The notes below the pieces were generated by a model, which did not search any database, was not told the origin of the DNA, and saw only the letters and a program-made list of their open reading frames with translations. A DNA stretch of 64,000 bases from a bacterium (GTDB lineage: Bacteria; Patescibacteriota; Patescibacteriia; JAGPKW01): assembly GCA_021780535.1 (NCBI GenBank), contig JAJXYN010000009.1, positions 303,923 to 367,922 on the forward strand, read 5' to 3'. The stretch's first letter is position 1, and each line of letters begins with the position of its first letter. Positions 8,588 through 39,059 of this stretch are shown here, piece by piece. The translations under genes and the position numbers were made by a program.

Positions 8588-8677
8588 GGAGAGGTGGCTG
8601 AGCGGTTGAAAGCACCACACTGCTAACGTGGCAGGGCCTAAAAACCCTCGCAGGTTCAAATCCTGTCCTCTCCGCCA
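8588..8677 (+). tRNA. tRNA-Ser (anticodon GCU)
   Basis: GGAGAGG acceptor stem pairing CCTCTCC, anticodon loop CUGCUAA, long variable arm, T-loop TTCAAAT, 3' GCCA encoded. Confidence 0.85.
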
Positions 8678-9062
8678 TACAGGGCTACCGAGATGCCTAG
8701 TTTTACTATGATGGCATTGATGAAACCCCATTAAATCACCAGAGTTTGGTGATTTTTTGTTTTTTTATTTCTCTAAGATTGGTCAATAAATTTTTGATAA
8801 ATTTCTCAATTTTCGAATATCTTGAAATGCAGACTAGAAATTAACTAAAAACTCCCATTAAAAAATAATTAAACTTGGTTCGAAACCTGTTTGCTCTGTT
8901 GGTAACTAGAGCTTCGCAAGGTTTTTGGTTATGTTAATATACTAATACCAACGCGATATTTGGTCTTATTTGGTAAATTAACAAAAATAAAATAGATACT
9001 TCTCTATAATCGAAAGGTATCTAAATTTATAAAATCTTAATTTTTAATAATAGAGATTAAGA
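8672..9062 (+). repeat. Flank repeat copy A: last 6 nt of tRNA-Ser plus ~385 bp of downstream sequence, repeated at 31021..31412 (and partially at 36283..36410)
   Basis: Direct comparison: ccgccatacagggctaccgagatgcctagttttactatgatggcatt...ttggttcgaaacct...taatagagattaag present in both places with ~90% identity. Confidence 0.8.
8733..8768 (+). terminator. Rho-independent terminator downstream of tRNA-Ser
   Basis: atcacca-gagtt-tggtgat hairpin followed by ttttttgttttttt; same element recurs in the two other flank copies. Confidence 0.6.
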
Positions 9063-9769
9063 ATATATTTAACTAAGAACTGGAGGTAATAAACTCCAGT
9101 TAAAATAAAGATAGAAGCTGTTACATATCTTAATATTTTTTCTACTTTAGATACTATATTTAAAGCTTTACTTAACTTATTAAAACTATAAGCTATTATA
9201 AAAGAAAATAATATTACAGGTAGACCGGTTCCTATCCCAAAGAAAGGAGCTAATAAAAATCCAAAATTAGTTTTAAGTATTAAAGGAATTAATATTCCAA
9301 AAAATAAAGCACCACTATAGGGACAAAAAGCTAAAGAAAATAAAATACCCATAAAAAATGAACCAATATAACCCTTAGTAGATAAATGATTTTTTAGTTG
9401 TTCTATCCTCTTATTTCTTATATTAATGTTTATTTTAATAACACCAAACATTAATAACCCTAATAGTATTAGAACTGGCCCTAAAACTTTATCGCCCCAT
9501 CCTTGAAATAGGCTGGATATTTTGAAAGATGATAAACCAAAATAAATTAGAAGAGCTATTAAAGTATAACTTAAAGATCTTCCTAAAGTATAAAATAAGC
9601 CACTTAAAATAGTTTTCTTTTGAGATTTTAAATCTTTTGAAATATATGCAACTGCAGTTATGTTTGTAGCAAGAGGACAAGGGCTAATTGATACTATAAC
9701 ACCCAAAAGAAAAGCTGTTATCAGTGGAATATTTGATGATTCTATTATTGTATTTATAAAATTTAACAT
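9044..9769 (-). CDS. CcdA/DsbD-family transmembrane thiol-disulfide electron transfer protein
   Basis: VSISPCPLATN first-Cys motif in TM1 as in CcdA (SPCVLP), multiple TM helices. Confidence 0.6.
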   Translation of the reverse strand: MLNFINTIIESSNIPLITAFLLGVIVSISPCPLATNITAVAYISKDLKSQKKTILSGLFYTLGRSLSYTLIALLIYFGLSSFKISSLFQGWGDKVLGPVLILLGLLMFGVIKININIRNKRIEQLKNHLSTKGYIGSFFMGILFSLAFCPYSGALFFGILIPLILKTNFGFLLAPFFGIGTGLPVILFSFIIAYSFNKLSKALNIVSKVEKILRYVTASIFILTGVYYLQFLVKYILNLYY

Positions 9770-11929: not shown

Positions 11930-11943
11930 ATTATTAAGATAAG

Positions 11944-12002: not shown

Positions 12003-13304
12003 TTAATTTTTAATTAAATTAATTTTCTTGTTTTTCATTATAAATTTATTCTTAAACATACCCATAAACTGTCTTTTTTCTTCTATAGAACCGTGGTTTA
12101 GTATAAACTTGGCATAATCTACTAAGTCTACCTTTCTATCGTTCATACCTCGTTCTACGTTGTTTATTTTAAGTACTTGTTTTTGTAGATGAGCAAATCT
12201 TTCCACTTCTATTCTTAACTTTTCTTTAATGTCTTCTTCTGGAATATCAATATCTTTTAGAAGTTTTATTATTTGCTCTATAAATTGTTCTTCTCTAATA
12301 TATCTATTACTACACTTAAGATCTTTTGTTCTATTACATCCATAGTAAATATATTTATTTACTCCACCATTTTTTAATTTCTTGTGTTTTTCCACCGCAC
12401 ATAAATTAGAGCTGCAATGACCACAAATCATAGAACCTAGAAAAGCAAACTCTTTTTCTCCATATTTGTAACTAGCTTTTCCTAATTTTATTTTTCTTTG
12501 AACGATTTCAAATAATTCTTTTGTAATTATTGGTTGATGATTTCCTTGGCACCAATTACCACTTCCTGCTGGATATTCAAACCATCCATAGTAAAATGGT
12601 CTACCAAGTAATATGTAGATATTTGCTAAAGACAGATTCTTACCACTTTTTGTTGTGAAATTTTGTTTTACAAACCAACTATGCAAAGCCCTACCAGAAT
12701 AGTTTTCATAAGCTACTTTCTCAAACGCTTGTTTGATTATTGGAGCTCTTTCAGGATCTGGAATTACTACTCCTGTTTTATTTTTTCTTTCATCATTAAG
12801 ATAGCCGATAGGAGCAACTCCTATCCAAAATCCTTTTGATGTTTTAATTTTCAAACCTCTTTTTACATTGATACTTTTATTATCATTCTCAAGTTTAGCC
12901 TGACCACCAAGTACTGCTAATAGAAATTTATCATTTGGTGTATTTTTAAAGTTTTGATTATACGTTCTTATTTCTTTAAGATAACTACCGTCTATTAAAT
13001 CTATAATACTTCCTAAATCTCCAGCATTTCTTGAAAGTCTATCAGTATTCCATGTTAGAATACCTTCGAATTTACCTTGTCTTAATTCTTTTATCATTTC
13101 ATTAAATATCGGCCTCTGACTTGAAGCTTTTGCAGAATGAGCCTCTTTTTTTATGCAAACCACATTAAGATTATCTCTTTCTGCTATTAAACTCATTTCA
13201 TTTTCTTGAGCTTCTATTGAAAGAGCCTGTTTTTCATCTTCTTCACTAGATTTTCTAGCATAAAGACAGTATCTAATTTCTGACGAAAACCCTTTGTTTT
13301 CCAT
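12003..13304 (-). CDS. Large serine recombinase (resolvase N-domain + recombinase domain + zinc ribbon)
   Basis: YARKSS (catalytic Ser region), RLSRN, recombinase-domain body and C-terminal CGHCSS...YYGC zinc ribbon. Confidence 0.85.
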   Translation of the reverse strand: MENKGFSSEIRYCLYARKSSEEDEKQALSIEAQENEMSLIAERDNLNVVCIKKEAHSAKASSQRPIFNEMIKELRQGKFEGILTWNTDRLSRNAGDLGSIIDLIDGSYLKEIRTYNQNFKNTPNDKFLLAVLGGQAKLENDNKSINVKRGLKIKTSKGFWIGVAPIGYLNDERKNKTGVVIPDPERAPIIKQAFEKVAYENYSGRALHSWFVKQNFTTKSGKNLSLANIYILLGRPFYYGWFEYPAGSGNWCQGNHQPIITKELFEIVQRKIKLGKASYKYGEKEFAFLGSMICGHCSSNLCAVEKHKKLKNGGVNKYIYYGCNRTKDLKCSNRYIREEQFIEQIIKLLKDIDIPEEDIKEKLRIEVERFAHLQKQVLKINNVERGMNDRKVDLVDYAKFILNHGSIEEKRQFMGMFKNKFIMKNKKINLIKN

Positions 13305-23247: not shown

Positions 23248-23249
23248 TT

Positions 23250-23618: not shown

Positions 23619-24388
23619 AATTTTTCAGCTTTTAAATTAGTTAACTTTTCCCAACGTTTAATAATAACTTCACAATAATGTGGGTCTTTTTCTATTGATA
23701 TACACCTTCTTTTTGTATGCTCTGAGGCAATAATAGTAGAACCGCTGCCACCAAAACAATCATAAACAATGTCATTTATCCTTGTGCTGTTTAAAATAAT
23801 CTTCCTAAGTAATCCTATCGGTTTCATTGTTGGATGAAGACTACTACTATTTGGTTTTGGATAATATAAAACTGTTTTATCTTTTGAACCTATAAATTCA
23901 TGTTTTCCAAACCATCCATAAAGTATTAATTCATGCATGGGAAGCCAATCATTTCTTGTTATGGTGCTGTGATTCTTAACCCAAATTAATAATTGAGCTG
24001 TTTTAATTTTTAACTCATCAAATGCTTGTTTTAAGGCAAACAACATTTTGTCTGAATTAAAAACATAAATTAAGTTTTTATCTTCTAATTTTGATAAAAC
24101 TGGTTCAATATATTTCTTTGTAAATTCTACATATTCTTTATCTGTAGATATGTTATCGTTCTCAATAATTCTATCTACTTTTACATCAGCAAATCCTTTC
24201 TTATTTTCTACATAAGAAATACCATATGGAGGATCTGTAATTATTGCTTTTATCTTATTTTCTCCAATGACTTTATTTACAAAGTCATTATCTAAACTAC
24301 TTCCACATCCTAGAATATGAGAACCTAATCTAAAGATTTCTCCATTTTTAATTAAGTTTTTTTGCTTTTTGTCCTGTATATTTTTCAT
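23615..24388 (-). CDS. DNA methyltransferase (N6-adenine/N4-cytosine, beta class)
   Basis: IITDPPYGI (motif IV) followed by C-terminal DCFGGSGST (motif I). Confidence 0.85.
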   Translation of the reverse strand: MKNIQDKKQKNLIKNGEIFRLGSHILGCGSSLDNDFVNKVIGENKIKAIITDPPYGISYVENKKGFADVKVDRIIENDNISTDKEYVEFTKKYIEPVLSKLEDKNLIYVFNSDKMLFALKQAFDELKIKTAQLLIWVKNHSTITRNDWLPMHELILYGWFGKHEFIGSKDKTVLYYPKPNSSSLHPTMKPIGLLRKIILNSTRINDIVYDCFGGSGSTIIASEHTKRRCISIEKDPHYCEVIIKRWEKLTNLKAEKL

Positions 24389-25634: not shown

Positions 25635-25839
25635 ATTTTCGGATTAGATTAATTAGTTAAAATAGTGTTTTTAAAAACAAAAATGGACTATTTTGTAAGA
25701 ACTACAAAAGAGGGTTACTCTTTCATAATTTTTACAAAATAGTCCATGTTGAGGCGCAATGCCTCTCTAGTGTTTTAACACCTTCTATCAAACATTTCTG
25801 TTTGAAATATACAATTACTATTTAAGTAAAGTTTATATT

Positions 25840-26400
25840 TTATTTTGTTGTATCCTTATAATCAAAAACTATTCTCATATTCATCTTTTTGAAAACATCT
25901 TCATCTATAACTATTGGTAGCTTATCAGAAGACACAAACGTTCTTTTTTTGTTACTAGGCTTATCCATACTGCTAAACATAGCCTTGCCATCATTAAATA
26001 TAACTAGCTCATCTTTTTTCATAAAGAATCTTCCTTGTTTACCGTTTTTCTTACTTTTACTAATACCTCTTATTAAGTCATTTGTATTAGAATGAGTAAA
26101 ATTATGAGCCCCTATATCTGTTAAGCAAACACCTTCTACTTTATTAACTACCATTTTAATATCAAATCCGGGTTTATACATCTGTTTAATATTATCAGCT
26201 TGTTCGCTAATAATACTAGAAGTTCTTTTTATTATTTCCTCATCACTAGAAGCATTATCTAAACCAAGTTTATCAATGGCGAATAAATCAAATATAAAAT
26301 TCATTTGAATACCATCTACAAGATATTGTATCTTTAAAGAATCCATATTTGAATTTCTGTAATCTGTTATAGTTTTTGAGAAGGTAATGTTTTCATCCAT
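25840..26400 (-). CDS. Hypothetical protein (prophage region)
   Basis: ORF only. Confidence 0.3.
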   Translation of the reverse strand: MDENITFSKTITDYRNSNMDSLKIQYLVDGIQMNFIFDLFAIDKLGLDNASSDEEIIKRTSSIISEQADNIKQMYKPGFDIKMVVNKVEGVCLTDIGAHNFTHSNTNDLIRGISKSKKNGKQGRFFMKKDELVIFNDGKAMFSSMDKPSNKKRTFVSSDKLPIVIDEDVFKKMNMRIVFDYKDTTK

Positions 26401-26409
26401 TTTGTTTTA

Positions 26410-26652
26410 TTAAAATTTAGTATCTATTATCTTAGACTCATTACCATAAGAATCAGAATCTCTGAATTTATTATTTCTACCTTGTATTTTCAGTTCTGAT
26501 TTTTGATGTATTGCTATAGACCTTGCTTTTTCTATTGCTTCTTTTTGAGTATTGAATAAAAATGTCATTTTGCTATTATTTTCTCCCTTTACACCCCAAT
26601 CTTTTTTGCTTTTATTGTTTTTTAGTTTTACAACATATTGATTTTTTCCCAT
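26410..26652 (-). CDS. DUF2188-family small protein
   Basis: WGVKGENNSKMTFLFNTQKEAIEKARSIA...RDSDSYGNE fits the DUF2188 pattern. Confidence 0.5.
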   Translation of the reverse strand: MGKNQYVVKLKNNKSKKDWGVKGENNSKMTFLFNTQKEAIEKARSIAIHQKSELKIQGRNNKFRDSDSYGNESKIIDTKF

Positions 26653-26822
26653 TTTATTTTTTGTTAATATTTAGATTATTATTTGAACTTAAGCCTTTAT
26701 TGTCTGTATACCCACAATCTGGACAAGTTCCTTGTGGTTTTGGTTTTTCTTGGTTACAATTTGGACAAGGATTTACGTCCTTTTGATTTATTTCTTTATC
26801 AAACATAAATTTAGATTAATGG

Positions 26823-27134
26823 TTAGTACTTATTTTGAATATTATATTTTGGCTTGAACTTGAAAATTTCACTCTTTTCTAAATCCTCAGCTTCTTTTAT
26901 TGTTGAGCAGGTGCAATAATTAAAATGTGTAATTCCATACCACTCATTAGCTTGAATATGTTGTAAAAGCCTTCCTCTTACACCTTGCTCGCTTGTAGCT
27001 TTTCCTACATAGTCTACATTTATTGTACCCTGTTGATTTGCTTGTCCTAGGTAATAAATTCCTATAACATTTGAATTCCAATTAGAGATAGTATTCTTAT
27101 CATAACTAAATGGTCCTTTGTAAAATTGAATCAT
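26823..27134 (-). CDS. Small stand-alone GIY-YIG nuclease-domain protein
   Basis: GIYYLG...(10 aa)...DYVGKA, then R (VRGRLLQH) and downstream E/N residues. Confidence 0.55.
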   Translation of the reverse strand: MIQFYKGPFSYDKNTISNWNSNVIGIYYLGQANQQGTINVDYVGKATSEQGVRGRLLQHIQANEWYGITHFNYCTCSTIKEAEDLEKSEIFKFKPKYNIQNKY

Positions 27135-27338
27135 ATTTCTAAAATTACTTAATTAATTTATAAATTCTGACCTTTGAAGGAGAGATTTTTAACGCTTATA
27201 GGTAGTATACAATAAAAAAATATTTTTGTAAACAAGTGAAAGTGTTTTTTAAAAATATTAACTTATTTAAATTAAAACTTTACATATGTAAACTTTTAGT
27301 ATAAAATACTAGTAGATAACAAAGAAATCACACAAAAT

Positions 27339-27986
27339 ATGACAAAAAATGAGGAATTTTTACTTAAGAAAATAAAGGATAACAAATTAGACGGATTATC
27401 TCTTAGAGAAATATCTGATTTAATACCAAATAGTGCTGGAAATGCAGGAACAGCACAATATTATTTAGAAAAACTTCAAAAAAATGGTTATATAATTTGG
27501 AATAGAACAAGAAAGAAAATTGTTTTACTTGGTGAAGTTGTTAAACAAAACATAAAATCAAATGTTCTTAGGCTCCCTTTTTATGGATATGCTAATTGTG
27601 GAGAAGCTTTATCTTTTGCAGATAATACCATTGAAAGATTTATAGAAGTATCATCTCCAATTTTAAAAAACAAAACTCAAGATGATCTTTTTATAGTTCA
27701 AGCAGATGGAGATTCTATGAATTTGCAGGAAATTAATGGTAAAAAAATAGAAAGTGGTGACTTTATTATTATTGATAAAAGTGAAATCAATGATTTGAAA
27801 AATGGTGATTGTGTTCTATCAATAATAAATGGAATGGCTAATATAAAAATATATAATAAAAGTGTTAAAGATGATTATATAAAATTGGAACCAAATTCCT
27901 CAAACAAGAATCATTTTCCGATATTTATTCATGAAGATGGAAATTTCACTATAGCAGGAAAGATTTTAGAAATAATAAAAAAATAA
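27339..27986 (+). CDS. LexA/CI-like repressor (HTH + S24 peptidase domain)
   Basis: N-terminal winged HTH (LSLREISDLIP...YYLEKLQKNGYI); GDSM serine motif and downstream Lys in C-terminal S24 domain. Confidence 0.75.
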   Translation: MTKNEEFLLKKIKDNKLDGLSLREISDLIPNSAGNAGTAQYYLEKLQKNGYIIWNRTRKKIVLLGEVVKQNIKSNVLRLPFYGYANCGEALSFADNTIERFIEVSSPILKNKTQDDLFIVQADGDSMNLQEINGKKIESGDFIIIDKSEINDLKNGDCVLSIINGMANIKIYNKSVKDDYIKLEPNSSNKNHFPIFIHEDGNFTIAGKILEIIKK

Positions 27987-28035
27987 AGGGTTAAAACCCT
28001 TTATTTTTGTTAGAGTTCATTATTAATTCATTAAA

Positions 28036-29217
28036 ATGTCTAAAAATCTAAAAGAAAAACAATATTATGAAGACCTATATGATTCTGAAACAATAGAAGA
28101 TTGTAAGAGAATGTTTTGTAATTCTACTGATAGAAAGTTTTTAGACAAAGAAATTAATAAATATAAAGACAAGAAATCGGCATCAGAAATGTTAAATAAA
28201 TGGGCTGATACAGTTGATAAAATAGGTCTATATTTCTTTAAAGGAGATAGATATAGAAAAAGAGAAGAAACAATAAGAGAATGGATGGCAAAAGATAGAA
28301 ATAGAGACCAAAAACTGGAAAATACAAATTTGGAAAATATTAAATGTAAATATTGTAATACCCTAATGGATTTAATAGATAAAGATTATTTTCCAAAGAA
28401 TATTGAACCATTAGAAGAATCTATATTATTTATCTACAGTTGTCCTAAGTGTAAAAAATCTAGAGCAATATTTGAAAATAATGAGGAATATATTCCAAAA
28501 AAAGTATTATGTCCTAAATGTAATAATGAACTAGATGTAAAAGGAAATGCAACCGAAGACAAGCTTATAACAACTTATAAATGCAATAATTGTGATTATA
28601 TAAATATTGATGAGATAGAAAGATTTAAACCAGAAAATAAAGAAATAGATTATGAACAATTTCTAAAAAATAAAAAAGAATATTGTTTAGATGATAAAGA
28701 AGGAATGGAATATGTTTCTCAATCTATAAGACTAGAAAGTCTCACAAAAGAATTCGAGAAAGATAAAGAAAAAGAAAAACAGAAAGCAACATACGATAAA
28801 ATAAAAGAACTTAATAAACCCAAAATATTTGACTTACAAGAACTTTTATCAAAAGGATTAGAAAAATATAAGTTTGTTAAATTAAATTTTAAAGAACCAC
28901 AAATTGAGAAGTTTATCACTATAGAATTTACAATTTATGACTCAGAAAGCTCTAGAAGTGAATATGATGCTAAAAATATATTACAAAAGCAAATAGAAGC
29001 AATATTAAAAGAAACTAATTGGATTTTGATGAGTGATGGAATTAGCTATAGATTAGGAATGTTGTCTGGAAGATTAAAAGCTTATGAAAGAGAAGAAGAT
29101 TTAGTTGAATTAGTTAATAAAAGATTTAAAGATCTAAAACCTAAAGAAGAAAAAATAGACTCAAACAGAAAAGACTGGGTTGTGAAAGGTGCAAACGGAG
29201 AGGATATAACTTTATGA
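28036..29217 (+). CDS. Multi-zinc-ribbon protein, unknown function
   Basis: CKYCN..CPKCK and CPKCN..CNNCD; its 3' ~95 bp is duplicated at 36112..36207. Confidence 0.4.
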   Translation: MSKNLKEKQYYEDLYDSETIEDCKRMFCNSTDRKFLDKEINKYKDKKSASEMLNKWADTVDKIGLYFFKGDRYRKREETIREWMAKDRNRDQKLENTNLENIKCKYCNTLMDLIDKDYFPKNIEPLEESILFIYSCPKCKKSRAIFENNEEYIPKKVLCPKCNNELDVKGNATEDKLITTYKCNNCDYINIDEIERFKPENKEIDYEQFLKNKKEYCLDDKEGMEYVSQSIRLESLTKEFEKDKEKEKQKATYDKIKELNKPKIFDLQELLSKGLEKYKFVKLNFKEPQIEKFITIEFTIYDSESSRSEYDAKNILQKQIEAILKETNWILMSDGISYRLGMLSGRLKAYEREEDLVELVNKRFKDLKPKEEKIDSNRKDWVVKGANGEDITL

Positions 29218-29498
29218 TAGAAGAAGATTATATAACAACGGTTGGAAAAATAATCCCGCCTAAAGGCAAAAATAGAATGCCAATAAGATATTTAGTTTCA
29301 TACCCCAAGGAATTTAATGAAAGATTATATGAGGAATCAATGGAGGCTATTTATAAAATAATTTTTTATTATGATAAAACAAAAACTACCACCAATGAAA
29401 GTTGTGATTCCGCCCCAAGGAAAAAGAAGATTCTCAATAATAATGGAGGCATGCTTTCCAGAAAATCCAGGCCAAAGAGAACAAGAGGAATTATTTAA
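29214..29498 (+). CDS. Small protein carrying repeat unit 1 (IIPPKGKNRMPIRYL...); possibly the 5' part of a frameshifted gene
   Basis: Paralogous ~45-aa unit recurs in the overlapping +1-frame ORF 29371..29595. Confidence 0.35.
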   Translation: MIEEDYITTVGKIIPPKGKNRMPIRYLVSYPKEFNERLYEESMEAIYKIIFYYDKTKTTTNESCDSAPRKKKILNNNGGMLSRKSRPKRTRGII

Positions 29499-29595
29499 AG
29501 CAGTTGATAAAATAATAATCTCTGAAATTATGAAGGATATGAATAAAAATGACCCATATTATAAAGAATATGAAAAAATACTTAACATATTATAA
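29371..29595 (+). CDS. Small protein carrying repeat unit 2 (VIPPQGKRRFSIIME...)
   Basis: See previous; alternative start ATG at 29395. Confidence 0.35.
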   Translation: MIKQKLPPMKVVIPPQGKRRFSIIMEACFPENPGQREQEELFKAVDKIIISEIMKDMNKNDPYYKEYEKILNIL

Positions 29596-29637
29596 GTTAA
29601 GTTGTAGGATAAAAATAAGATTTTTAAAAAAACCAAA

Positions 29638-30102
29638 ATGAATGACGAAAATAAAAGAAAACACTTAGAAATGATACAAAATATAGTTACTAGAATGGGA
29701 AATAATTTATTTTTCCTAAAAGGTTGGTCTATTACAATAATAGCAGCTATATATGCTATTCTTGCAAAAGATATAAGTTTAAAATACATGATTTTCGCAG
29801 CAATTCTTCTTATAATACTATGGATTCTTGACGGTTATTTCTTACATCAAGAAAGATGTTTTAGAGATTTATATGATGCTGTAAGAATTAAAAAAGAAGA
29901 AGATATAGACTATTCTATGAATATAAAAGAATATATAAAAGGAAAAAATACTTGGTTAAAATCAATGTTTTCAAAAACATTAAATATATTTTATGGATCA
30001 ATGTTATTTTTAATAATTATTATGATTGTGTTATCAAATATTAAAATAAATATATCTATTACTTGGAACAATCAAAACAATAATCAAATAATACAAAAAT
30101 AG
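29638..30102 (+). CDS. Small 3-TM membrane protein, translationally coupled to downstream TIR-like gene
   Basis: Predicted TM helices WSITIIAAIYAIL, MIFAAILLIILWIL, SMLFLIIIMIVL; stop at 30102, next start at 30104. Confidence 0.45.
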   Translation: MNDENKRKHLEMIQNIVTRMGNNLFFLKGWSITIIAAIYAILAKDISLKYMIFAAILLIILWILDGYFLHQERCFRDLYDAVRIKKEEDIDYSMNIKEYIKGKNTWLKSMFSKTLNIFYGSMLFLIIIMIVLSNIKINISITWNNQNNNQIIQK

Positions 30103-30103
30103 A

Positions 30104-30763
30104 ATGGGCAGAAAAATATTTGTTAGCTATAAATATGCTGATTCATCTGTTCCGGATTTAAATCTTGGTGAACAGACAACTGTTAGGCATTATGTTGATA
30201 TAATACAAGGACTTTTATCAGAAGAAGATCATATAAACAAGGGTGAAAACGATGGAGAAGATTTAAGTTCTTTTAAAGAAAGTACGATAGAATCAAAATT
30301 AAGAGATAAAATATTTGATAGCACTATAACAATAGTTTTAATATCAAAAAACATGAAAGATCCTAGCAAGAATGAATCAGACCAGTGGATACCTTGGGAG
30401 GTTTCATATTCATTAAAAGAGATTACAAGAGGAGATAAAACAAGTGGCACAAATGCCATGTTAGCAGTTGTTTTACCAGATGAAAAAAATGATTATTCCT
30501 ATTTCGTAAATCACTTTGCTTGTACTACAAGTTGGAATACAGATATACTTTTTAAAATTCTTGGAAATAATATGTTTAATAGGAATAATAAAAATTTAAT
30601 CTCATGCCAAACTTGTGGAGGAACGCATCATATAGACGATGATCACTCATATATTCACCCAGTAAAATGGTGCGATTTCATAAAAGATATAAATAAATAT
30701 ATAGATATAGCTTTAAAAATGAATAATAATCTCAATGAATATAAAATTCAAAAGGAATTATAA
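30104..30763 (+). CDS. TIR-like domain protein (ThsB/DUF1863-like) with Cys/His-rich C-terminus
   Basis: KIFVSYKYADS N-terminal strand motif and SDQWIPWEVSYSL (W-x-x-E) motif as in ThsB (RVFFSFHYQD ... RRWVRYEIMKS); recalled alignment, not computed. Confidence 0.6.
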   Translation: MGRKIFVSYKYADSSVPDLNLGEQTTVRHYVDIIQGLLSEEDHINKGENDGEDLSSFKESTIESKLRDKIFDSTITIVLISKNMKDPSKNESDQWIPWEVSYSLKEITRGDKTSGTNAMLAVVLPDEKNDYSYFVNHFACTTSWNTDILFKILGNNMFNRNNKNLISCQTCGGTHHIDDDHSYIHPVKWCDFIKDINKYIDIALKMNNNLNEYKIQKEL

Positions 30764-30906
30764 TTTTGTTTTTGTTATCTATATACATTAATGACGCAAT
30801 AAAAATCACATATCTAGCAGTTGATAACTTATAATATTTTAGGCTAATATTAGCTATATTATGCTGATATTTATCTATAAAGTCAAGTTAAAAACCTTCT
30901 ATTTTT

Positions 30907-31020
30907 TATGTGTAACATTTGTAACATTTTTTTGCGACCGAGATGCCTCATTTTTCTCCAAAATCCTACCCCCAAAACCCCTTATGGTGCTTGTATGTGT
31001 GGGTACCAGACCGAGGCTTC
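30907..31020 (+). repeat. ~115-bp repeat unit (tgtgtaacatttgtaacattt...gcgACCGAGATGCCtcatttttctcc...cttcccgcc), second copy at 35475..35629
   Basis: ~85% identity between copies; contains a second instance of the accgagatgcc motif also present just downstream of tRNA-Ser. Confidence 0.7.
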
Positions 31021-31412
31021 CCGCCATACAGGGCTACCGAGATGCCTAGTTTTACTATGATGGCATTGAGTTATCCCAGAAAAATCATCAGAAATGGTGA
31101 TTTTTTGTTTTTTTATTTCTCTAAGGTTGGTCAATAAATTTTTTATAAATTTCTCAATTTTCGAATACCTTGAAATGCAGATTATAAATTAATGAAAATC
31201 CCTCATTAATAAACAATTAAATTTGGTTCGAAACCTAGATGCTCTGTTGGTAACTAGAGCTTCGCAAGGTTTTTGGTTATGTTAACATACTAATACCAAC
31301 GCGACATTTCGGTCTTATTTGGTAAATTAACAAAAATAAAAAAAGATACTTCTCTATAATCGAAAGGCGTCTAAATTATAAAATCTTAATTTTTAATAAT
31401 AGAGATTAAGAA
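31021..31412 (+). repeat. Flank repeat copy B (partial tRNA-Ser 3' end ccgcca + downstream flank)
   Basis: See copy A; terminator hairpin variant atcatca-gaaa-tggtgat. Confidence 0.8.
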
Positions 31413-31541
31413 AAATATTTAATAAATTAACTAATAATATATGATTTAAAATCTTCATCATTTCTTCATTTTGATTTGATATGATTTGTAGTTATTGGTT
31501 TATGGAGTTAGAATTATTTAATAAATATATAATTATAATTT

Positions 31542-32882
31542 ATGTCAGATAACATAAAACAAGAAGAAGCTAATCAACAAAATGACAATAAAATATTAAG
31601 TAAAGAAAAGGAAAAAGAACTAGATTTTTTCATTACAACTCCATTAAGATCAGCTAACAATTTAATGAACAAATTATATAGCGATGATAGTTTTTATGAA
31701 ACAACTACTTATGCATTTGTTTCACCAGGAGATGCTAAAAAACTTTTTTTCTATGGAGCGTGTAAGGAGGTATTAAAAACCTGTATATATTTAATGAACA
31801 ATAAAGAATTTCTAGGAGGATCTATAAATGATAAAGATTTTGGTATTGTAGAAAAAGTAATAATGGGGTCAACAATAGATACTCAAACATATCATAGAAG
31901 AAAGATGGTGGAGCTATTAAGTATTGTTATATTATTTGATAGAAACACTAAACATGATGAAGAATACAGAATATATAAATCAGCTGAGAATTTAGATTTA
32001 TTCCTAAGCAGACAATCTGATTTTAAAGAACTTTTTAATGGAAAAATAATATTAAATACTCAACATTCAATAGATGATTTTATAGGAAGGATTGATAGTG
32101 ATAAAAAAGCCATCGAACTTACAGATGTTTGGTTTTTAAATGAAAAAAAACTAAAAAATCAAACTCCAGGTATATTTAAGAGCAAAAAAGGAATATATGA
32201 TTCAGCAATGCTTGTTGCTACTCCTGATGAAAAAATAGCTCTTGGTATATCCTATGGCCGTGGCTATTCTCGTGCTAGTCAATCAATTCATCCAATGTTA
32301 GGAAGTAGTAATTATGGTAAAGAAGATAATGATATCGAACATGTACTTATGAATTCAATTTATATGTCAATTATATGTATGCAAATAATGCATATAGCCT
32401 ATAAGTTAACTGGTTTTGAGGATGAATTTGGATTATCAAAAATCATGGGAACTAATTTTGAAAAATCAGAAGCATCTAAATCAATTGGAGTTTTACAGAA
32501 AGATTTTGATAAAGGAGATCTTATACTTACTTCATGGACAGATATTGCAGAAATAATTGATGAAGAAACAAGTAAATACGGATATAAGGCTTATAAAATA
32601 AAATATCTTTTAACACCACCGCTACCAGAATATCCAGAAGATTGGATAGAAGCACAAAACATATTAGCGCGTATATTATCAAAAAAAACTGTAAGAAAAA
32701 TGTTTAACAATATGGTTATAGAAAAAATGTCTAAAGATGTTATTGAATTATGGCCCGATGTATTAAAACAACCAGATGAAGAACTTATGAAATCAGCAAA
32801 ACATGTGTTTATTGATTTACATAAAGCCAATGTCTTGATACCAATGTTACTAAAAAGTGGTTTCTTAAAGAAAACTAGTTAA
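31542..32882 (+). CDS. Hypothetical 446-aa protein (sole cargo of module B)
   Basis: Intact ORF, host-like composition, no recognisable motif. Confidence 0.45.
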   Translation: MSDNIKQEEANQQNDNKILSKEKEKELDFFITTPLRSANNLMNKLYSDDSFYETTTYAFVSPGDAKKLFFYGACKEVLKTCIYLMNNKEFLGGSINDKDFGIVEKVIMGSTIDTQTYHRRKMVELLSIVILFDRNTKHDEEYRIYKSAENLDLFLSRQSDFKELFNGKIILNTQHSIDDFIGRIDSDKKAIELTDVWFLNEKKLKNQTPGIFKSKKGIYDSAMLVATPDEKIALGISYGRGYSRASQSIHPMLGSSNYGKEDNDIEHVLMNSIYMSIICMQIMHIAYKLTGFEDEFGLSKIMGTNFEKSEASKSIGVLQKDFDKGDLILTSWTDIAEIIDEETSKYGYKAYKIKYLLTPPLPEYPEDWIEAQNILARILSKKTVRKMFNNMVIEKMSKDVIELWPDVLKQPDEELMKSAKHVFIDLHKANVLIPMLLKSGFLKKTS

Positions 32883-32896
32883 TATTAGTAAGAATA

Positions 32897-34198
32897 TTAA
32901 TTTTTTATTAAACTAATCTTCTTATTTTTCATTACAAACTTATTCTTAAACATACCCATAAACTGTCTTTTTTCTTCTATAGAACCGTGATTTAATATAA
33001 ACTTGGCATAATCTACCAAGTCTACTTTTCTATCGTTCATACCTCTTTCTACATTGTTTATTTTTAGTACTTGTTTTTGTAGATGAGCAAATCTTTCTAC
33101 TTCTATTCTTAACTTTTCTTTAATGTCTTCTTCGGGAATATCAATATCTTTTAGAAGCTTTACTATTTGCTCTATAAATTGTTCTTCTCTAATATATCTA
33201 TTACTACATTTAAGATCTTTTGTTCTATTACATCCATAGTAAATATATTTATTTACTCCACCATTTTTTAATTTCTTATGTTTTTCTACTGCACATAAAT
33301 TAGAACTACAATGGCCACAAATCATAGACCCTAAGAATGCAAATTCTTTTTCTCCATATCTATAACTAGCTTTTCCTAATTTTATTTTTCTTTGAACTAT
33401 TTCAAAGAGTTCTTTTGTAATTATTGGTTGATGATTTCCTTGGCACCAATTACCACTTCCTGCTGGATATTCAAACCATCCATAATAAAAAGGCCTTCCA
33501 AGTAGTATATAGATATTTGCTAAGGATAAATTCTTACCACTTTTTGTCGTGAAATTTTGCTTTACAAACCAACTATGTAAAGCTCTACCAGAATAGTTTT
33601 CATAAGCCACCTTCTCAAATGCTTGTTTAATTATTGGGGCTCTTTCAGTATCTGGAATTACTACTCCTGTTTTATTTTTTCTTTCATCATTAAGATATCC
33701 AATAGGCGCAACTCCTATCCAAAATCCTTTTGATGTTTTAATTTTAAGACCTCTTTTTACATTGATACTTTTATTATCATTCTCAAGTTTAGCCTGACCG
33801 CCAAGTACAGCTAATAGAAATTTATCATTCGGAGTATTTTTAAAGTTTTGATTATATGTTCTTATTTCTTTCAGGTAACTACTATCTATCAGGTCTATTA
33901 TACTTCCTAAATCCCCGGCATTTCTTGAAAGTCTATCAGTATTCCATGTTAGAATACCTTCAAATTTTCCTTGTCTTAATTCTTTTATCATTTCATTAAA
34001 TACTGGTCTTTGACTTGAAGCTTTTGCAGAATGGGCTTCTTTTTTTATACAAACTACATTTAAACTATCTCTTTCTGCTATTAAACTCATTTCATTCTCT
34101 TGAGCTTCTATCGAAAGAGCTTGTTTTTCGTCTTCTTCACTAGATTTTCTAGCATAAAGACAATATCTAATTTCTGATGAAAACCCTTTGTTTTCCAT
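32897..34198 (-). CDS. Large serine recombinase (second copy)
   Basis: 8 aa differences from 12003..13304 over 433 aa. Confidence 0.85.
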   Translation of the reverse strand: MENKGFSSEIRYCLYARKSSEEDEKQALSIEAQENEMSLIAERDSLNVVCIKKEAHSAKASSQRPVFNEMIKELRQGKFEGILTWNTDRLSRNAGDLGSIIDLIDSSYLKEIRTYNQNFKNTPNDKFLLAVLGGQAKLENDNKSINVKRGLKIKTSKGFWIGVAPIGYLNDERKNKTGVVIPDTERAPIIKQAFEKVAYENYSGRALHSWFVKQNFTTKSGKNLSLANIYILLGRPFYYGWFEYPAGSGNWCQGNHQPIITKELFEIVQRKIKLGKASYRYGEKEFAFLGSMICGHCSSNLCAVEKHKKLKNGGVNKYIYYGCNRTKDLKCSNRYIREEQFIEQIVKLLKDIDIPEEDIKEKLRIEVERFAHLQKQVLKINNVERGMNDRKVDLVDYAKFILNHGSIEEKRQFMGMFKNKFVMKNKKISLIKN

Positions 34199-34339
34199 AT
34201 ATTTATCATTAATTTGTTATCTATACACATTAATGACGCAACCCATCTAGTGCGTCTAGGATGAGTTGTTGGTAAGTTGTAGGTAAATAAAAAAGAGCCC
34301 TGTTGTCAGGGCTCTACTCAAGAAAGATTGACTTGTGTG

Positions 34340-34864
34340 TTACTTGTCTTTCTTCACTATGAGTTTTGGCGCATCGATGTTGAGAGGCGCCCCGGAGTAA
34401 ATGTAGGTAGCGTTGGCACCTGCAAATTCAACCGGATTTCCGTCGGGAAGGAAGAAGTGGATACCTGGGTTGTTTTTACCATAGGTACCGTCCAGATCAG
34501 GAGCATCAACAATTTGGTACGAATAATTACCACTAAAGTTGAATTTCTGCATCATTTGTTCAGGGTAAATGTACGACTGAGTTGAGGCAGGCTTTCCTTC
34601 GGTTACGAAATAGCCAATGCAGTAGTTACCCACAAAGATGTAGGTATATGCCGGTACGCTTGGCTTGTTCCAATACTCGTACCAACGCTTCTGCGTCATG
34701 GCTTCCTGGAAGTAGTCGAGCTTAGGCGGACCACCAATTGCCTCAATGACCGCTTTAGCATTTTCTTCCTGGGACTTTTCCAGTTGTTGCCTGGCGGTTG
34801 GTTCCCAACTACAACCCGAGAGAACGGCTCCAACAAGGAGCAACAAAAAAACGAGTTTTCTCAT
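34340..34864 (-). CDS. Lipoprotein, compositionally foreign (~48% GC)
   Basis: LSGC lipobox after signal peptide; 4-nt overlap with upstream gene. Confidence 0.5.
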   Translation of the reverse strand: MRKLVFLLLLVGAVLSGCSWEPTARQQLEKSQEENAKAVIEAIGGPPKLDYFQEAMTQKRWYEYWNKPSVPAYTYIFVGNYCIGYFVTEGKPASTQSYIYPEQMMQKFNFSGNYSYQIVDAPDLDGTYGKNNPGIHFFLPDGNPVEFAGANATYIYSGAPLNIDAPKLIVKKDK

Positions 34865-35307
34865 TTTTCACCTCCGATAGTATCGTTGACCATTTGGATC
34901 TCATAAGGCAGATCCTCAGCCTTCCACAAATTTCTGGTCTTCTGCTTTGACCGACTGTTGTACTGCTGGATCTGATTGTTGAGAATCATTTTCAGACCAG
35001 TGTAATCAGTCAGGCGAAGACTGTTGGTATCAGTGCCCCTGGAAAGCTCGAAAGCTTCCTTGGCGGCGGCCAGGTTTGCTTTTGATGCATCAATCTGAGC
35101 CTTCTGGTCGTAAAACCATTGGTAATCAGAGATGATCTTGTGCGGATCAGTGACCTCGGAAACGATACCGGTTGCGATGCTGAACGGCCAAATGTGAGCG
35201 ATGGCGCTCACACCAAGATAGATACCAACAACAATAATGATGCCGATAATCCACTTGACAGTTTTCTTCGAGGTAGCTTCTTCAAGCTCGTCCCTCAGAT
35301 ATCCCAT
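34861..35307 (-). CDS. N-terminally TM-anchored protein, compositionally foreign, canonical GGAGG SD
   Basis: GGAGG 7 nt upstream of ATG (absent from host genes); single N-terminal TM. Confidence 0.5.
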   Translation of the reverse strand: MGYLRDELEEATSKKTVKWIIGIIIVVGIYLGVSAIAHIWPFSIATGIVSEVTDPHKIISDYQWFYDQKAQIDASKANLAAAKEAFELSRGTDTNSLRLTDYTGLKMILNNQIQQYNSRSKQKTRNLWKAEDLPYEIQMVNDTIGGEK

Positions 35308-35703
35308 ACGTACCTCCTTGTCCTATTTTGGACTCTATTACTATAACATAAATAGTACATTTTGTCAATTATTTTTGCCATCTTTACTTATTATTTTTAT
35401 TTAATACTATTCAATAAAATATAAACATTTTTGAATATGTAGTGTCGCATATGTCGCATTAAATTTGTCTTTTTTTGTGTAACATTTGTAACATTTTACA
35501 TCCTATGTACTGTCTAATTTGTCCAATTTTTACCTCTGCGACCGAGATGCATCATTTTTCTCCAAAACCCTACTCTTAAAACCCCTTATGGTACTTGTAT
35601 GTATGAGTACCAAACCGAGACTTCCCGCCTTCGCTCGCTATAGCGAGCTTCAGCGGATAAATCCGCAAGGATATTATTCAAAGAAAATACTCCATTAAAA
35701 AAT

Positions 35704-35726
35704 CTCGCGAAAGCGGGCTTTTTTAA
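35704..35726 (+). terminator. Hairpin + T-run (ctcgc-GAAA-gcggg-ctttttt), preceded by two short perfect palindromes
   Basis: gctcgctatagcgagc and gcggataaatccgc palindromes at 35631..35668 then terminator-like hairpin. Confidence 0.35.
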
Positions 35727-35755
35727 TATTTGAATTAATTTTTAATTAACTTTTT

Positions 35756-35992
35756 ATGTATTTTGTTTATATATTAAGATGTTCAAATAAATCTACATAT
35801 ACTGGCTGTACAAATAATATAAAAGAAAGGATTAAAAGACATAAAAATGGAAAAGTTTTTTCTACCAAAAACAAATTGCCAATAAGATTAATATATTTAT
35901 CTGTTTTTAGAAACAAATATCTTGCTTATAATTTTGAAAAGTATTTAAAATCTGGTTCTGGTAGAGTTTTTATTAGAAAACATTTAATATAA
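35756..35992 (+). CDS. GIY-YIG nuclease superfamily protein (UPF0213/YhbQ-like)
   Basis: YFVYILRCSNKSTYTGCTNNIKERIKRHKNG is a near-textbook GIY-YIG signature. Confidence 0.85.
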   Translation: MYFVYILRCSNKSTYTGCTNNIKERIKRHKNGKVFSTKNKLPIRLIYLSVFRNKYLAYNFEKYLKSGSGRVFIRKHLI

Positions 35993-36111
35993 ATTAATCT
36001 ATAAATTCATTATAAATATACTACTTGTGTGATTTAATCTTATTAACATTTTAGTAACTTTAAAAAAATTTAATAGCTATGTAGAATGATTATAAATATT
36101 GATAAATCAAA

Positions 36112-36207
36112 CAATATTAAAAGAAACTAATTGGATTTTAATGAGTGATGGGATTAGTTATAGATTAGGAATGTTGTCTAGGAGATTAAAAGCTTATGAA
36201 AGAGAGG
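36112..36207 (+). pseudogene. Orphan duplicated fragment of the 3' end of gene 28036..29217
   Basis: ~90% nucleotide identity to 29000..29095, no upstream reading frame. Confidence 0.6.
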
Positions 36208-36282
36208 AATAGGATGCCTAATTTAGACAATAAATGAGCGATAGCGAATATTATTGTCTTATCCTCGTAGTGGGTTTACTAT

Positions 36283-36410
36283 GATGGCATTAATGAAACC
36301 CATTAAATCACCAGAGTTTGGTGATTTTTTAGTTAATAAAAGAACGAAGTGAATATTATTAACTTATCCCAGAATGAGATTGTTTTTTTATTTCTCTAAG
36401 GTTATTGGAA
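36283..36410 (+). repeat. Flank repeat copy C (partial), carrying both terminator-hairpin variants
   Basis: ttactatgatggcattaatgaaacccattaaatcaccagagtttggtgatttttt ... gtttttttatttctctaagg. Confidence 0.65.
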
Positions 36411-38703: not shown

Positions 38704-38708
38704 ATTTT

Positions 38709-39026: not shown

Positions 39027-39037
39027 ATTATTAAAAC

Positions 39038-39059
39038 TATATCAATTTATATTGATATA
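39038..39059. promoter_or_regulatory. Putative ArsR operator (tatatcaa-N6-ttgatata), identical to 11944..11965
   Basis: Perfect inverted repeat immediately upstream of arsR start. Confidence 0.55.

What the first reader, a model, noticed from the sequence alone, without database searches (positions are those of the whole stretch)
30907..31044. 115-bp repeat unit carrying a second accgagatgcc motif, present at two element boundaries (30907 and 35475)
Both copies start with tgtgtaacatttgtaacattt and end with cttcccgcc. In the first copy this runs straight into the tRNA 3'-end sequence ccgccatacagggctACCGAGATGCCtag.
- The unit is non-coding and GC-enriched.
- It sits at the right edge of the prophage remnant and again right after the GC-rich island.
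- The recurring ccgagatgcc motif (with an A or C preceding it) could be the short core recognised at the tRNA-Ser site.
Basis: seen in the sequence. Interest (0 to 1): 0.5.

Follow-up and report, generated by a model that had tools for sequence, protein, structure and literature searches.

The report
Right-end attachment arm of tRNA-Ser integrative elements
The repeated non-coding unit is the conserved right-hand end of two mobile, phage-like elements that sit one behind the other at the 3' end of a serine tRNA gene and were probably inserted by a large serine recombinase; this is an ordinary kind of feature, with an uncommon pairing of enzyme and target.

Summary
Two copies of the unit exist (30896-31025 and 35466-35629). 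Their 93-nt cores are 89% identical, and CCGAGATGC occurs 4 times against 0.03 expected.

The window holds a 26,953-bp insert at the last CC of tRNA-Ser(GCU). It consists of two tandem elements, E1 (8677-31025) and E2 (31026-35629). Each is built as left arm S, cargo slot, large serine recombinase (LSR), cargo, unit.
- Copy 1 lies at the internal E1|E2 joint, which looks like attP.
- Copy 2 lies at the true attR. It abuts the tRNA trailer that directly follows tRNA-Ser in a related genome with no insert at that junction.

Four further units in other metagenomes occupy the same position.

The sequence "ccgccatacagggctACCGAGATGCC" is not tRNA sequence beyond ccgcc(a). The rest is the element's left arm. 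The motif is not the crossover core:
- across six units only the final CC is shared with the tRNA;
- the motif is degenerate in three units;
- it is absent from that tRNA trailer, both in the relative and after copy 2.

The invariant part of the unit is TTTTTTATGTGTAACATTTGTAACATT.

Verdict: new member of a known kind, of modest interest. Serine integrases rarely target tRNA genes, and the host is probably a Patescibacterium.

The parts
8588..8677 (+). tRNA-Ser(GCU) gene, the integration target. Its last CC (8675-8676) is the inferred crossover.
   Evidence: ARAGORN; Rfam tRNA match, 55 bits; junction stack.
8677..9072 (+). S1, the left arm (P' side) of element E1. It supplies a replacement tRNA trailer and a terminator hairpin. 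It contains Box-2, GCTACCGAGATGCCTAGTTTTACT, at 8684-8707.
   Evidence: 90.6% identical to 31021-31422. Homologous S modules follow tRNA-Ser in contigV, L021, L184 and L189.
12003..13304 (-). LSR1, the large serine recombinase of E1 (433 aa). It has Resolvase, Recombinase and zinc-ribbon domains and a YARKS catalytic motif.
   Evidence: Pfam; PHROG integrase, 9e-66; PDB best match is SPbeta SprA; translation.
30766..30895 (+). Conserved right-end region upstream of unit 1. It includes a 30-nt copy (30769-30799) of the sequence found upstream of both LSR genes.
   Evidence: sequence. 78% identical to the right end of contigV across 30764-31301.
30896..31025 (+). Unit copy 1, the right-end (P) arm of E1. 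The invariant block TTTTTTATGTGTAACATTTGTAACATT is at 30902-30928. Box-1 is at 30934-30957. It ends in CTTCCCGCC.
   Evidence: nhmmer profile match 30896-31025, E = 2.6e-22.
31024..31025 (+). The CC at the internal E1|E2 joint. Unit 1 meets S2 here in an attP-like arrangement.
   Evidence: Junction stack. The same unit|S joint occurs in contigV, L187 and L188.
31026..31537 (+). S2, the left arm of element E2, continuous with the upstream region of ORF446. Box-2 is at 31033-31056.
   Evidence: 79% to contigV S_L through to the ORF404 start; 93% to L187.
32897..34198 (-). LSR2, the large serine recombinase of E2. It is 98% identical to LSR1 in protein but differs at 92 nucleotides.
35466..35629 (+). 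Unit copy 2, the right-end (P) arm of E2, at the true attR. The invariant block is at about 35469-35495. An insertion of about 40 nt lies at 35498-35536. Box-1 is at 35538-35561. It ends in CTTCCCGCC.
   Evidence: nhmmer match 35466-35629, E = 2.9e-19.
35630..35727 (+). B', the tRNA-Ser trailer and intrinsic terminator displaced 27 kb from the tRNA by the insert. The GIY-YIG gene follows at 35756-35992.
   Evidence: In L185 the same sequence directly follows tRNA-Ser: 34 of the first 37 nt are identical, and 78% over 380 nt. Terminator at 35704-35717.

Best explanation
**What the unit is.** The unit is the conserved right-terminal arm (the P side of attP) of a family of prophage-like integrative elements. 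These elements encode a large serine recombinase (LSR) and insert at the extreme 3' end of tRNA-Ser genes. The crossover lies in the CC that ends the gene (the CC of CCA).

**What the window contains.** Two such elements lie in tandem:
- tRNA-Ser..CC | S1 ... LSR1 ... unit 1..CC | S2 ... LSR2 ... unit 2..CC | displaced tRNA trailer.
- Unit 2 with the trailer is attR.
- Unit 1 with S2 is an internal joint with the structure of attP.
- The tRNA with S1 is attL.

**What is shown.** The boundaries; the four-way attB/attP/attL/attR logic; the recurrence of the unit at the same end of six elements; and the presence of an intact LSR under purifying selection as the only recognisable recombinase.

**What is inferred.**
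- The LSR catalyses the reaction, cutting at the CC.
- About 25 bp at the 3' end of the unit would form the P half-site.
- The invariant TGTAACATT x2 block and the ACCGAGATGC boxes (one in each arm) would be accessory protein-binding sites rather than the crossover core.
- The tandem arose either by a second integration into attL or by homologous recombination between related elements.
For: **1. Four-way junction logic, all breaking at the same phosphodiester after CCGCC.**
- L185: tRNA|TTCGCTCGC.
- Window: tRNA|ATACAGGG(S1), unit 1|ATACAGGG(S2) and unit 2|TTCGCTCGC.
- In L185, a relative whose His_Phos protein is 55% identical, tRNA-Ser is followed directly by B' and GIY-YIG. The window therefore carries 26,953 extra bp there.

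**2. Independent elements have the same architecture.**
- contigV (IMG/VR 3300010346_002174): tRNA-Ser|S, ORF404, LSR (84% identical), phage-like genes, unit|S.
- L189: a 5,332-bp element, tRNA|S..LSR..unit|S.
- L187: a 12.3-kb contig whose two ends overlap across a unit|S joint.
- L021: a related LSR (81% nucleotide identity to contigV's LSR region; 84% amino-acid identity to LSR1) next to tRNA-Ser(UGA), with S starting right after CTCTCCGCC.
- A profile built from six units finds copies only at these right ends.

**3. Identity at the joint is minimal.** Unit 3' ends read CTTCCCGCC, CTCCCCGCC, TACACACC and CTCACGCC. Only CC is common with the tRNA. That fits the 2-bp crossover of serine recombinases.

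**4. The recombinase is intact and conserved.**
- The LSR has all three domains and the YxRxS motif.
- LSR1 and LSR2 differ at 92 nucleotides but only 8 residues.
- No tyrosine integrase was found among the ORFs of E1, E2 or contigV.

**5. It is not an RNA gene or a coding sequence.**
- No Rfam match.
- Fold z-scores range from +0.4 to -2.1.
- Stop codons interrupt the other copies.
Against: - Neither the reconstructed attB nor attP shows the imperfect dyad symmetry around the CC that is typical of characterised LSR sites: 4-7 of 24 positions match. The best attP dyad (13 of 24) is centred 5-6 nt to the right of the joint.
- Conserved arms of 100-160 nt (unit) and 400-500 nt (S) are much larger than the roughly 50-bp sites LSRs are known to need.
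- Canonical LSRs do not recombine attP with attL, yet unit|S joints were seen in four of five resolved right ends. Tandem arrays would have to be frequent.
- L185 is not a clean empty locus. Remnants of a related element, with their own unit, lie to the right of GIY-YIG. B'-GIY-YIG could therefore itself be mobile.
- Three sizeable ORFs without family assignment (17052-18155, 28036-29217, 31542-32882) cannot be formally excluded as recombinases.
- No junction reads or experiments are available.
Confidence: 0.75

Rival explanations
1. One reading: (A/C)CGAGATGCC is the short core recognised and exchanged at the tRNA-Ser site, and the sequence after ccgcc is the tRNA 3' end.
For: - The motif is strongly over-represented.
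- It lies on both sides of the joint.
- It is conserved in S of the window, contigV and L189, and in three units.
Against: - Homology switches immediately after CCGCC, not at the motif.
- The trailer that follows tRNA-Ser in L185, and that follows unit 2 in the window, lacks the motif.
- Three of six units and the S of L021 have degenerate versions.
- ARAGORN and Rfam end the tRNA at 8677 and 8674 respectively.
Confidence: 0.04
2. The unit is a small non-coding RNA gene (a tRNA-like or regulatory RNA) carried at the element end and transcribed towards the terminator downstream.
For: - Both copies are followed within about 100 nt by a terminator-like hairpin on the + strand.
- The GGTRCTTGTATGTRTGRGTACC hairpin keeps pairing through G-U changes between copies 1 and 2.
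- The unit is GC-rich.
Against: - No Rfam family matches, even at E = 10.
- Fold energies are not different from shuffles for copy 1 (z = 0.33 and -0.14) and only weakly different for copy 2.
- No promoter-like site lies in or before the unit.
- The central 60 nt, including that hairpin, is replaced by unrelated sequence in U185, U187 and U188.
- There is no similarity to tRNA-Ser beyond CCGCCA (19-45% of shuffles score at least as high).
- The terminators belong to the tRNA trailer.
Confidence: 0.05
3. The unit is an att arm as described, but the recombinase is not the LSR. It could be an unrecognised integrase among the unannotated ORFs, or a host or helper enzyme. The TGTAACATT repeats and the boxes would then act as arm-type sites of a heterobivalent system.
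For: - Directly repeated short boxes in long arms, and no dyad symmetry at the crossover, resemble tyrosine-integrase attP architecture more than known LSR sites.
- Tandem accretion at a tRNA gene is typical of tyrosine integrases (PMC7192596).
Against: - No Phage_integrase domain appears in any ORF of E1, E2 or contigV.
- The unannotated ORFs are not shared between family members, whereas the LSR is present in five of the six (window x2, contigV, L187, L188/189; also L021).
- Identity at the joint shrinks to 2 bp, which is too short for a tyrosine-recombinase overlap region.
Confidence: 0.1
4. B'-GIY-YIG (35630-35992) is itself a small mobile cassette, or the left end of a further decayed element, that landed at the same CC. 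Unit 2|B' would then be another internal joint rather than the attR against host DNA.
For: - In L185, GIY-YIG is followed by a copy of the tRNA T-arm/acceptor sequence GGTTCGAATCCTGTCCTCT, which forms a perfect 13-bp hairpin. After that come S-distal sequence, fragments like ORF393 and a unit.
- In the window an ORF393 fragment and a truncated S3 lie right of GIY-YIG.
- GIY-YIG is 78% identical in protein between the two genomes, against 55% for His_Phos.
Against: - B' is a plausible native trailer with its own terminator.
- Its nucleotide identity between genomes (78%) is no higher than that of the tRNA itself (84%).
- This reading needs an extra element that targets exactly the same phosphodiester.
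- It does not change what the unit is.
Confidence: 0.15

Closest known systems
Serine-integrase (large serine recombinase) prophage attachment sites, e.g. SPbeta SprA, Listeria A118, Bxb1, phiC31
   Same: - The recombinase has three domains and the YxRxS catalytic motif, and its best solved relative is SPbeta SprA.
- The element is bounded by hybrid sites.
- attP and attB share almost no sequence beyond a 2-bp core (CC).
   Different: - The target is the 3' end of a tRNA gene. A 2020 survey found this for only 14 of 297 serine-integrase elements and called it previously unreported (PMC7192596).
- No dyad symmetry is detectable around the crossover.
- The conserved arms are far longer than about 50 bp and carry direct repeats.
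- The integrase gene lies 1.7-3.3 kb inside the left end, behind a cargo slot.
- Tandem copies are frequent.
tRNA-targeting genomic islands and prophages with tyrosine integrases, including tandem island arrays (and phage mv4 at tRNA-Ser)
   Same: - Integration is at the 3' end of a tRNA gene, and the element restores the gene's end and trailer.
- Diverse elements accrete in tandem at one tRNA.
- Defence and metal-resistance cargo sits near the ends.
   Different: - There is no tyrosine integrase.
- There is no extended direct repeat of the tRNA 3' part at the far end: the unit is unrelated to the tRNA except for CC(GCC).
- The 49-nt exact repeat in the window is element sequence (S), not tRNA.
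Accessory-site architectures of small serine recombinases (res sites) and arm-type sites of lambda-like attP
   Same: - Short directly repeated boxes lie at a distance from the crossover: TGTAACATT x2, GTCGCAT x2, and one ACCGAGATGC box in each arm.
- One block is invariant across all six units.
   Different: - No binding protein has been identified.
- The distance from the invariant block to the crossover varies from 68 to 135 nt, so there is no fixed phasing.
- This is only a resemblance, not a tested membership.

Membership tests
Large serine recombinase (serine integrase) integration module | Recombinase with an N-terminal resolvase catalytic domain (nucleophilic Ser in YxRxS), a recombinase domain and a zinc-ribbon domain | tested here: met
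   - Pfam PF00239, PF07508 and PF13408.
- YARKS at residues 15-19.
- PDB best match is SPbeta SprA, 8e-12.
- Both copies are intact; 8 amino-acid against 92 nucleotide differences.
Large serine recombinase (serine integrase) integration module | The element is bounded by attL and attR, which are reciprocal hybrids of an attB and an attP | tested here: met
   tRNA|B' (L185), tRNA|S, unit|S and unit|B' all switch at the same position. Caveat: L185 carries related remnants nearby.
Large serine recombinase (serine integrase) integration module | The identity required between attP and attB is limited to a central, non-palindromic dinucleotide | tested here: met
   Across six units the only residues shared with the tRNA at the joint are CC. 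The cleavage position itself was not mapped.
Large serine recombinase (serine integrase) integration module | att sites are imperfect inverted repeats centred on the crossover dinucleotide | tested here: not met
   4-7 of 24 complementary positions around any dinucleotide within CCGCC, in both attB and attP. The best attP dyad, 13 of 24, is centred at +5/+6.
Large serine recombinase (serine integrase) integration module | The recombinase catalyses attP x attB recombination with these sites | not testable with these tools
   Needs an in vitro or in vivo assay, or junction reads.
Tyrosine-integrase tRNA-targeting island | A tyrosine recombinase (Phage_integrase domain) is encoded in the element | tested here: not met
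   No such domain in any ORF of at least 148 aa in 8677-35629, nor among the ten largest contigV ORFs scanned plus its LSR.
Tyrosine-integrase tRNA-targeting island | The far end carries a direct repeat of the tRNA 3' segment (identical core of at least about 7 bp) | tested here: not met
   - The unit against tRNA-Ser is not above shuffles (19-45% of shuffles score at least as high).
- The shared end is 5 bp in the window and 2 bp in L188.
- No second copy of the tRNA T-arm exists in the window.
Described structured RNA family (Rfam) | A match to a covariance model, or stable and conserved secondary structure | tested here: not met
   - No match at gathering thresholds, and none overlapping the unit core even at E up to 10.
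- z-scores from +0.4 to -2.1.
- The central part is not conserved among the six copies.
Dispersed miniature repeat (MITE/REP-like) | Many dispersed copies in either orientation, independent of a particular neighbour | tested here: not met
   - Only two copies in 64 kb, both in the same orientation.
- Each lies at the right end of an LSR element.
- Scans of genome, metagenome and viral collections found only members of this element family.

The most novel reading that the evidence does not exclude
The attP of this recombinase family may be a complex site rather than the simple ~50-bp site known for serine integrases. In that reading an invariant 27-nt block with two TGTAACATT repeats, plus one ACCGAGATGC-type box in each arm, would bind the integrase or a partner protein. 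These sites could govern directionality. They could also let incoming elements use an occupied site (attL), which would explain why unit|S joints and tandem arrays are so common at this tRNA in Patescibacteria.
Probability: 0.15. Interest if true: 0.6.

Novelty: new member of a known kind. Interest (0 to 1): 0.35.

Why it matters
**For annotation.** The result fixes, to the base, the boundaries of a 27-kb tandem insert. It shows that everything from 8677 to 35629 is mobile, including an arsR/permease/DsbD cluster, a P-type ATPase, a ThsB-like defence gene and a GC-rich cassette.

**For biology.**
- It adds a well-resolved case of a serine integrase using a tRNA gene. That pairing is statistically rare and was described in 2020 as unproven (PMC7192596).
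- The host lineage is probably Patescibacteria, where temperate elements are little characterised.
- The recombinase, with its inferred sites (tRNA-Ser end and unit|S joint), is a directly testable candidate pair for integrase tool development.
- The invariant repeat block gives a concrete target for asking whether some serine integrases use accessory sites.

Tried and rejected
**Searches for more copies that led nowhere**
- The genome-contig scan with ACCGAGATGC-N(20-45)-AACCCCTTATGG returned one hit, a chance match inside a hisH-like gene.
- The metagenome scan with ACCGAGATGCNTCATTTTTCTC returned only a duplicate of contigV.
- Four viral scans found nothing new: a gapped motif gave 6 GC-rich chance hits; TGTAACATTTGTAACAT gave at least 120 hits, none with a unit by nhmmer; ACCGAGRCTTCCCGCC gave 40 hits, 39 of them unrelated sequence (most from one gut-phage gene family); the L021 variant gave 0 hits.
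- BLAST against the phage and plasmid collections gave no match.

**Ideas considered and rejected**
- The unit as a degenerate tRNA-Ser copy: the alignment is not above shuffles.
- The unit as a coding sequence: stop codons interrupt the other copies.
- The unit as a promoter: no consensus site.
- TGTAACATT as a general operator: single sites are not enriched, 41 observed against 45 expected.
- The LSR element boundary lying at the LSR stop codon (12002/32896), with the unit as its inverted partner: rejected because S-X-LSR is contiguous in contigV, L187 and L189, and there is no inverted similarity.
- The inverted repeat CGAGGCTTCCCG / CGAGATGCCTAG as the recombinase dyad: it is centred 5-6 nt away from the mapped joint and is not kept in U187.
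- An apparent concerted G-to-A change in Box-1 and Box-2 of L188: the two boxes probably belong to neighbouring elements, so it is not counted as covariation.

**Not obtained**
- The right end of the tRNA-Ser(UGA) element. Contig ERZ20002198 k141_618816, positions 1-8515, could not be fetched. Its terminase was not among the listed homologues.

Full report
**1. The observation**

The two copies are real.
- A self-comparison of the window aligns 30933-31025 with 35537-35629: 93 nt, 89% identity, E = 2e-28.
- Both copies are preceded by TGTGTAACATTTGTAACATTT and end in CTTCCCGCC.
- Copy 2 has an insertion of about 40 nt between the 5' block and the core, so the two copies differ in length.
- Copy 1 runs directly into a 49-nt exact repeat of the sequence that starts 5 nt before the end of the tRNA-Ser gene (8672-8720 = 31021-31069).
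- CCGAGATGC occurs 4 times against 0.03 expected by chance. The four hits are two pairs of homologous copies: S1/S2 and unit 1/unit 2.
- The cores are 54% and 45% GC in a window of 26.5% GC.

**2. The surroundings**

The window is part of a 126-kb metagenome contig, ENA ERZ27236853 k141_1121053. Named homologues of its recombinase and of a flanking housekeeping gene come from Patescibacteria. The host assignment is therefore an inference.

Self-similarity and domain searches give this order:

| Feature | Coordinates |
|---|---|
| His_Phos gene | - |
| tRNA-Ser(GCU) | 8588-8677 |
| Non-coding module S1 | 8677-9072 |
| DsbD / permease / thioredoxin / ArsR cargo | - |
| Large serine recombinase LSR1 | 12003-13304, minus strand |
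| P-type ATPase, sigma factor, LOOT RNA | - |
| Prophage remnant (terminase, methylases, S24 repressor) | - |
| PDC-M50A-like and ThsB-like defence genes | - |
| Unit 1 | - |
| S2 (first 49 nt identical to S1, about 88% identical thereafter) | 31026-31537 |
| ORF446 | - |
| LSR2 | 32897-34198 |
| GC-rich two-gene cassette | - |
| Unit 2 | - |
| Hairpins and a terminator | - |
| GIY-YIG gene | 35756-35992 |
| Fragment of ORF393 | - |
| Truncated S3 | 36275-36400 |
| Further genes | - |

The same layout, S - cargo slot - LSR - cargo - unit, therefore occurs twice in a row.

**3. Related sequences**

- **contigV.** An IMG/VR contig encodes an LSR 84% identical to LSR1. Rebuilt to its full 15,122 nt, it reads: tRNA-Ser(GCU) | S | ORF404 | LSR | LOOT RNA, terminase, methylases | unit ending CTTCCCGCC | S again | IS fragment. 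The right-end region, unit and S align to window 30764-31301 at 78% identity.
- **L189.** Two NCBI assemblies carry a compact 5,332-bp version, tRNA|S..LSR..restriction enzyme..unit|S.
- **L187.** A 12.3-kb Logan contig contains S..helicase..LSR..type I R-M and Abi..unit|S. Its two ends overlap by 10 nt within S. It is therefore either a circle or a copy flanked by S.
- **L021.** A more distant element (LSR 81-82% identical in nucleotides) lies next to tRNA-Ser(UGA). S-like sequence starts right after CTCTCCGCC.
- **L185.** This relative carries a sixth unit at the right end of a defence island that has no LSR.
- A profile built from the six units finds nothing else in the window or in the related loci.
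- Scans of the public collections found no copies outside this family.

**4. The boundaries**

L185 comes from a relative whose His_Phos protein is 55% identical. There tRNA-Ser(GCU) is followed directly by TTCGCTCGCTAGAGCGAGC..., a terminator and the GIY-YIG gene. The window has the same sequence, TTCGCTCGCTATAGCGAGC... (34 of the first 37 nt identical), immediately after unit 2.

Eight junctions stacked in register show all four combinations, and every one switches immediately after CCGCC:
- tRNA|B' (L185)
- tRNA|S (window, L184, contigV, L021)
- unit|S (window, contigV)
- unit|B' (window)

That is the pattern of site-specific recombination between an attB (tRNA|B') and an attP (unit|S). Relative to L185 the window carries 26,953 extra bp, made up of E1 (8677-31025) and E2 (31026-35629).

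It follows that:
- unit 2 is the P arm of attR;
- unit 1|S2 is an internal joint with attP structure;

**5. Which enzyme, and where it cuts**

- The LSR is the only recognisable recombinase, and it is present in every autonomous member. No Phage_integrase domain was found.
- It has the resolvase, recombinase and zinc-ribbon domains and a YARKS catalytic motif. Its closest solved relative is SPbeta SprA.
- LSR1 and LSR2 differ at 92 nucleotides but only 8 residues. They are therefore distinct lineages under purifying selection, not a recent duplication.
- Across the six units the 3' end reads CTTCCCGCC, CTCCCCGCC, TACACACC or CTCACGCC. Only the final CC is shared with the tRNA.
- Two base pairs of identity fit serine-recombinase chemistry. 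They are too few for a tyrosine-recombinase overlap region.
- I therefore infer a crossover at the CC that ends the tRNA gene. The element then supplies the next base (A in most members, which completes CCA), a new trailer and a terminator.

**6. What does not fit neatly**

- Neither site shows dyad symmetry around that CC: 4-7 of 24 positions match. The best attP dyad (13 of 24) pairs the unit's CGAGGCTTCCCG with the S motif CGAGATGCCTAG. It is centred 5-6 nt to the right of the joint and is not kept in U187.
- The conserved arms are far longer than known LSR sites.
This block is invariant in all six copies, yet its distance from the joint varies from 68 to 135 nt.
The box is degenerate in three units and in L021.
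- These boxes are plausibly protein-binding sites. No function can be assigned to them.
- Unit|S joints are frequent, which means tandem arrays or use of occupied sites are common.
- L185 is not pristine. To the right of GIY-YIG it has a hairpin that copies the tRNA T-arm, S-distal sequence, fragments like ORF393 and a unit. The window likewise has an ORF393 fragment and S3 there. B'-GIY-YIG might thus be a small mobile cassette. This would change the label of the last joint, not the nature of the unit.

**7. Other readings tested**

- No Rfam family matches the unit, even at permissive thresholds.
- Folding is not better than shuffles for copy 1 and only marginally better for copy 2.
- The central 60 nt is replaced by other sequence in half the copies.
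- No promoter-like site lies in the unit.
- ORFs across copy 1 are interrupted in the other copies.
- The unit is not a tRNA fragment.

**8. Comparison with what is known, and novelty**

This is an attachment-site arm of an integrative element, which is a known kind of feature. The uncommon aspects are these:
- A serine integrase targets a tRNA gene. A survey found 14 of 297 such cases, against 44.5% for tyrosine integrases, and called the use of a t(m)RNA gene by a serine integrase previously unreported and in need of proof (PMC7192596).
- The crossover sits at the very last CC of the gene.
- The conserved arms are long and contain repeats.
- The host is probably a Patescibacterium.

I file it as a new member of a known kind and give it modest interest.

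Noticed in passing
window 8677-9072, 31026-31537, 36275-36400; also contigV, L021, L187, L189: The S module is a non-coding left arm of 400-500 nt, conserved at 75-93% between elements whose neighbouring genes differ. It contains a strongly conserved block, GGTTCGAAACCTGTTTGCTCTGTTGGTAA..CTTCGCAAGGTTTTTGGTT, with no Rfam match. It could be a regulatory region or an undescribed RNA.
   Followed up: partly
window 13319-13348, 34213-34242 and 30769-30799; L017 1733-1759 and 12767-12796; both ends of L023: A sequence of about 30 nt, TTGTTATCTATA(C/T)ACATTAATGACGCAA, lies just upstream of each LSR gene. It occurs again, in the same orientation, near the right end of the phage-type elements, so it brackets the phage core. 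It may be a shared operator or promoter, or a second recombination site.
   Followed up: no
window 20238-20354: A LOOT RNA (Rfam RF03000, 67 bits, E = 1.7e-10) lies inside element E1. Homologous sequence is present at the equivalent position in contigV, L021 and L187.
   Followed up: partly
window 29638-30763; L023 158-2020; L021 2684-9873; L187 346-8784; L185 212-6654: The slots next to the element ends hold different defence cargo in each relative:
- ThsB-like TIR (PADLOC 4e-80) with PDC-M50A in the window;
- an OLD-family nuclease in L023;
- type I R-M with a reverse transcriptase in L021;
- type I R-M with Abi in L187;
- NACHT and SLFN/AlbA_2 proteins in L185.
   Followed up: partly
window 34295-35307: A cassette of 47% GC sits in a 26.5% GC genome. 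It has two overlapping minus-strand ORFs (174 and 148 aa) with no Pfam or PADLOC family. It appears to have been acquired from a different source, between LSR2 and unit 2.
   Followed up: partly
window 36109-36400: A 101-nt fragment of the 3' end of ORF393 (93% identical to 28997-29097) is followed 65 nt later by an S copy that lacks its first 30 nt. This is a decayed older element joint lying to the right of GIY-YIG.
   Followed up: partly
L185 6762-6800 (minus strand): Immediately after the GIY-YIG stop codon lies GGTTCGAATCCTGTCCTCT, a copy of the tRNA-Ser T-arm and acceptor sequence. It forms a perfect 13-bp hairpin with ACAGGATTCGAAC. It may mark the GIY-YIG cassette as an insertion into the tRNA end, or it may be a secondary attachment site.
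   Followed up: partly
window 11612-12023 versus 38708-39114: Two paralogous arsR genes with their palindromic operator region are 86% identical. One lies inside E1 next to LSR1; the other lies beyond the insert. In L013 (GCA_021833805.1) the arsR-LSR1 joint is 99.5% identical, but a Dam methylase replaces the ATPase on the other side of the LSR.
   Followed up: partly
window 21817-30763; contigV whole: The phage-type members (13-22 kb) encode small and large terminase subunits, several methylases and a repressor. They have no recognisable capsid, portal or tail genes. They may be remnants, satellites, or phages of a lineage with unrecognisable structural genes.
   Followed up: no
window 48569-48616 and 53726-53773: A repeated 48-nt sequence (85% identical) with a G-rich core, TATCACAGGGGTGGGGGGTGTCAAGAG, lies in two intergenic regions 5 kb apart.
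   Followed up: no
window 63171-63286: Tandem repeats of 36-42 nt encode an arginine/glycine-rich (GGSRGGFGG-like) protein segment.
   Followed up: no
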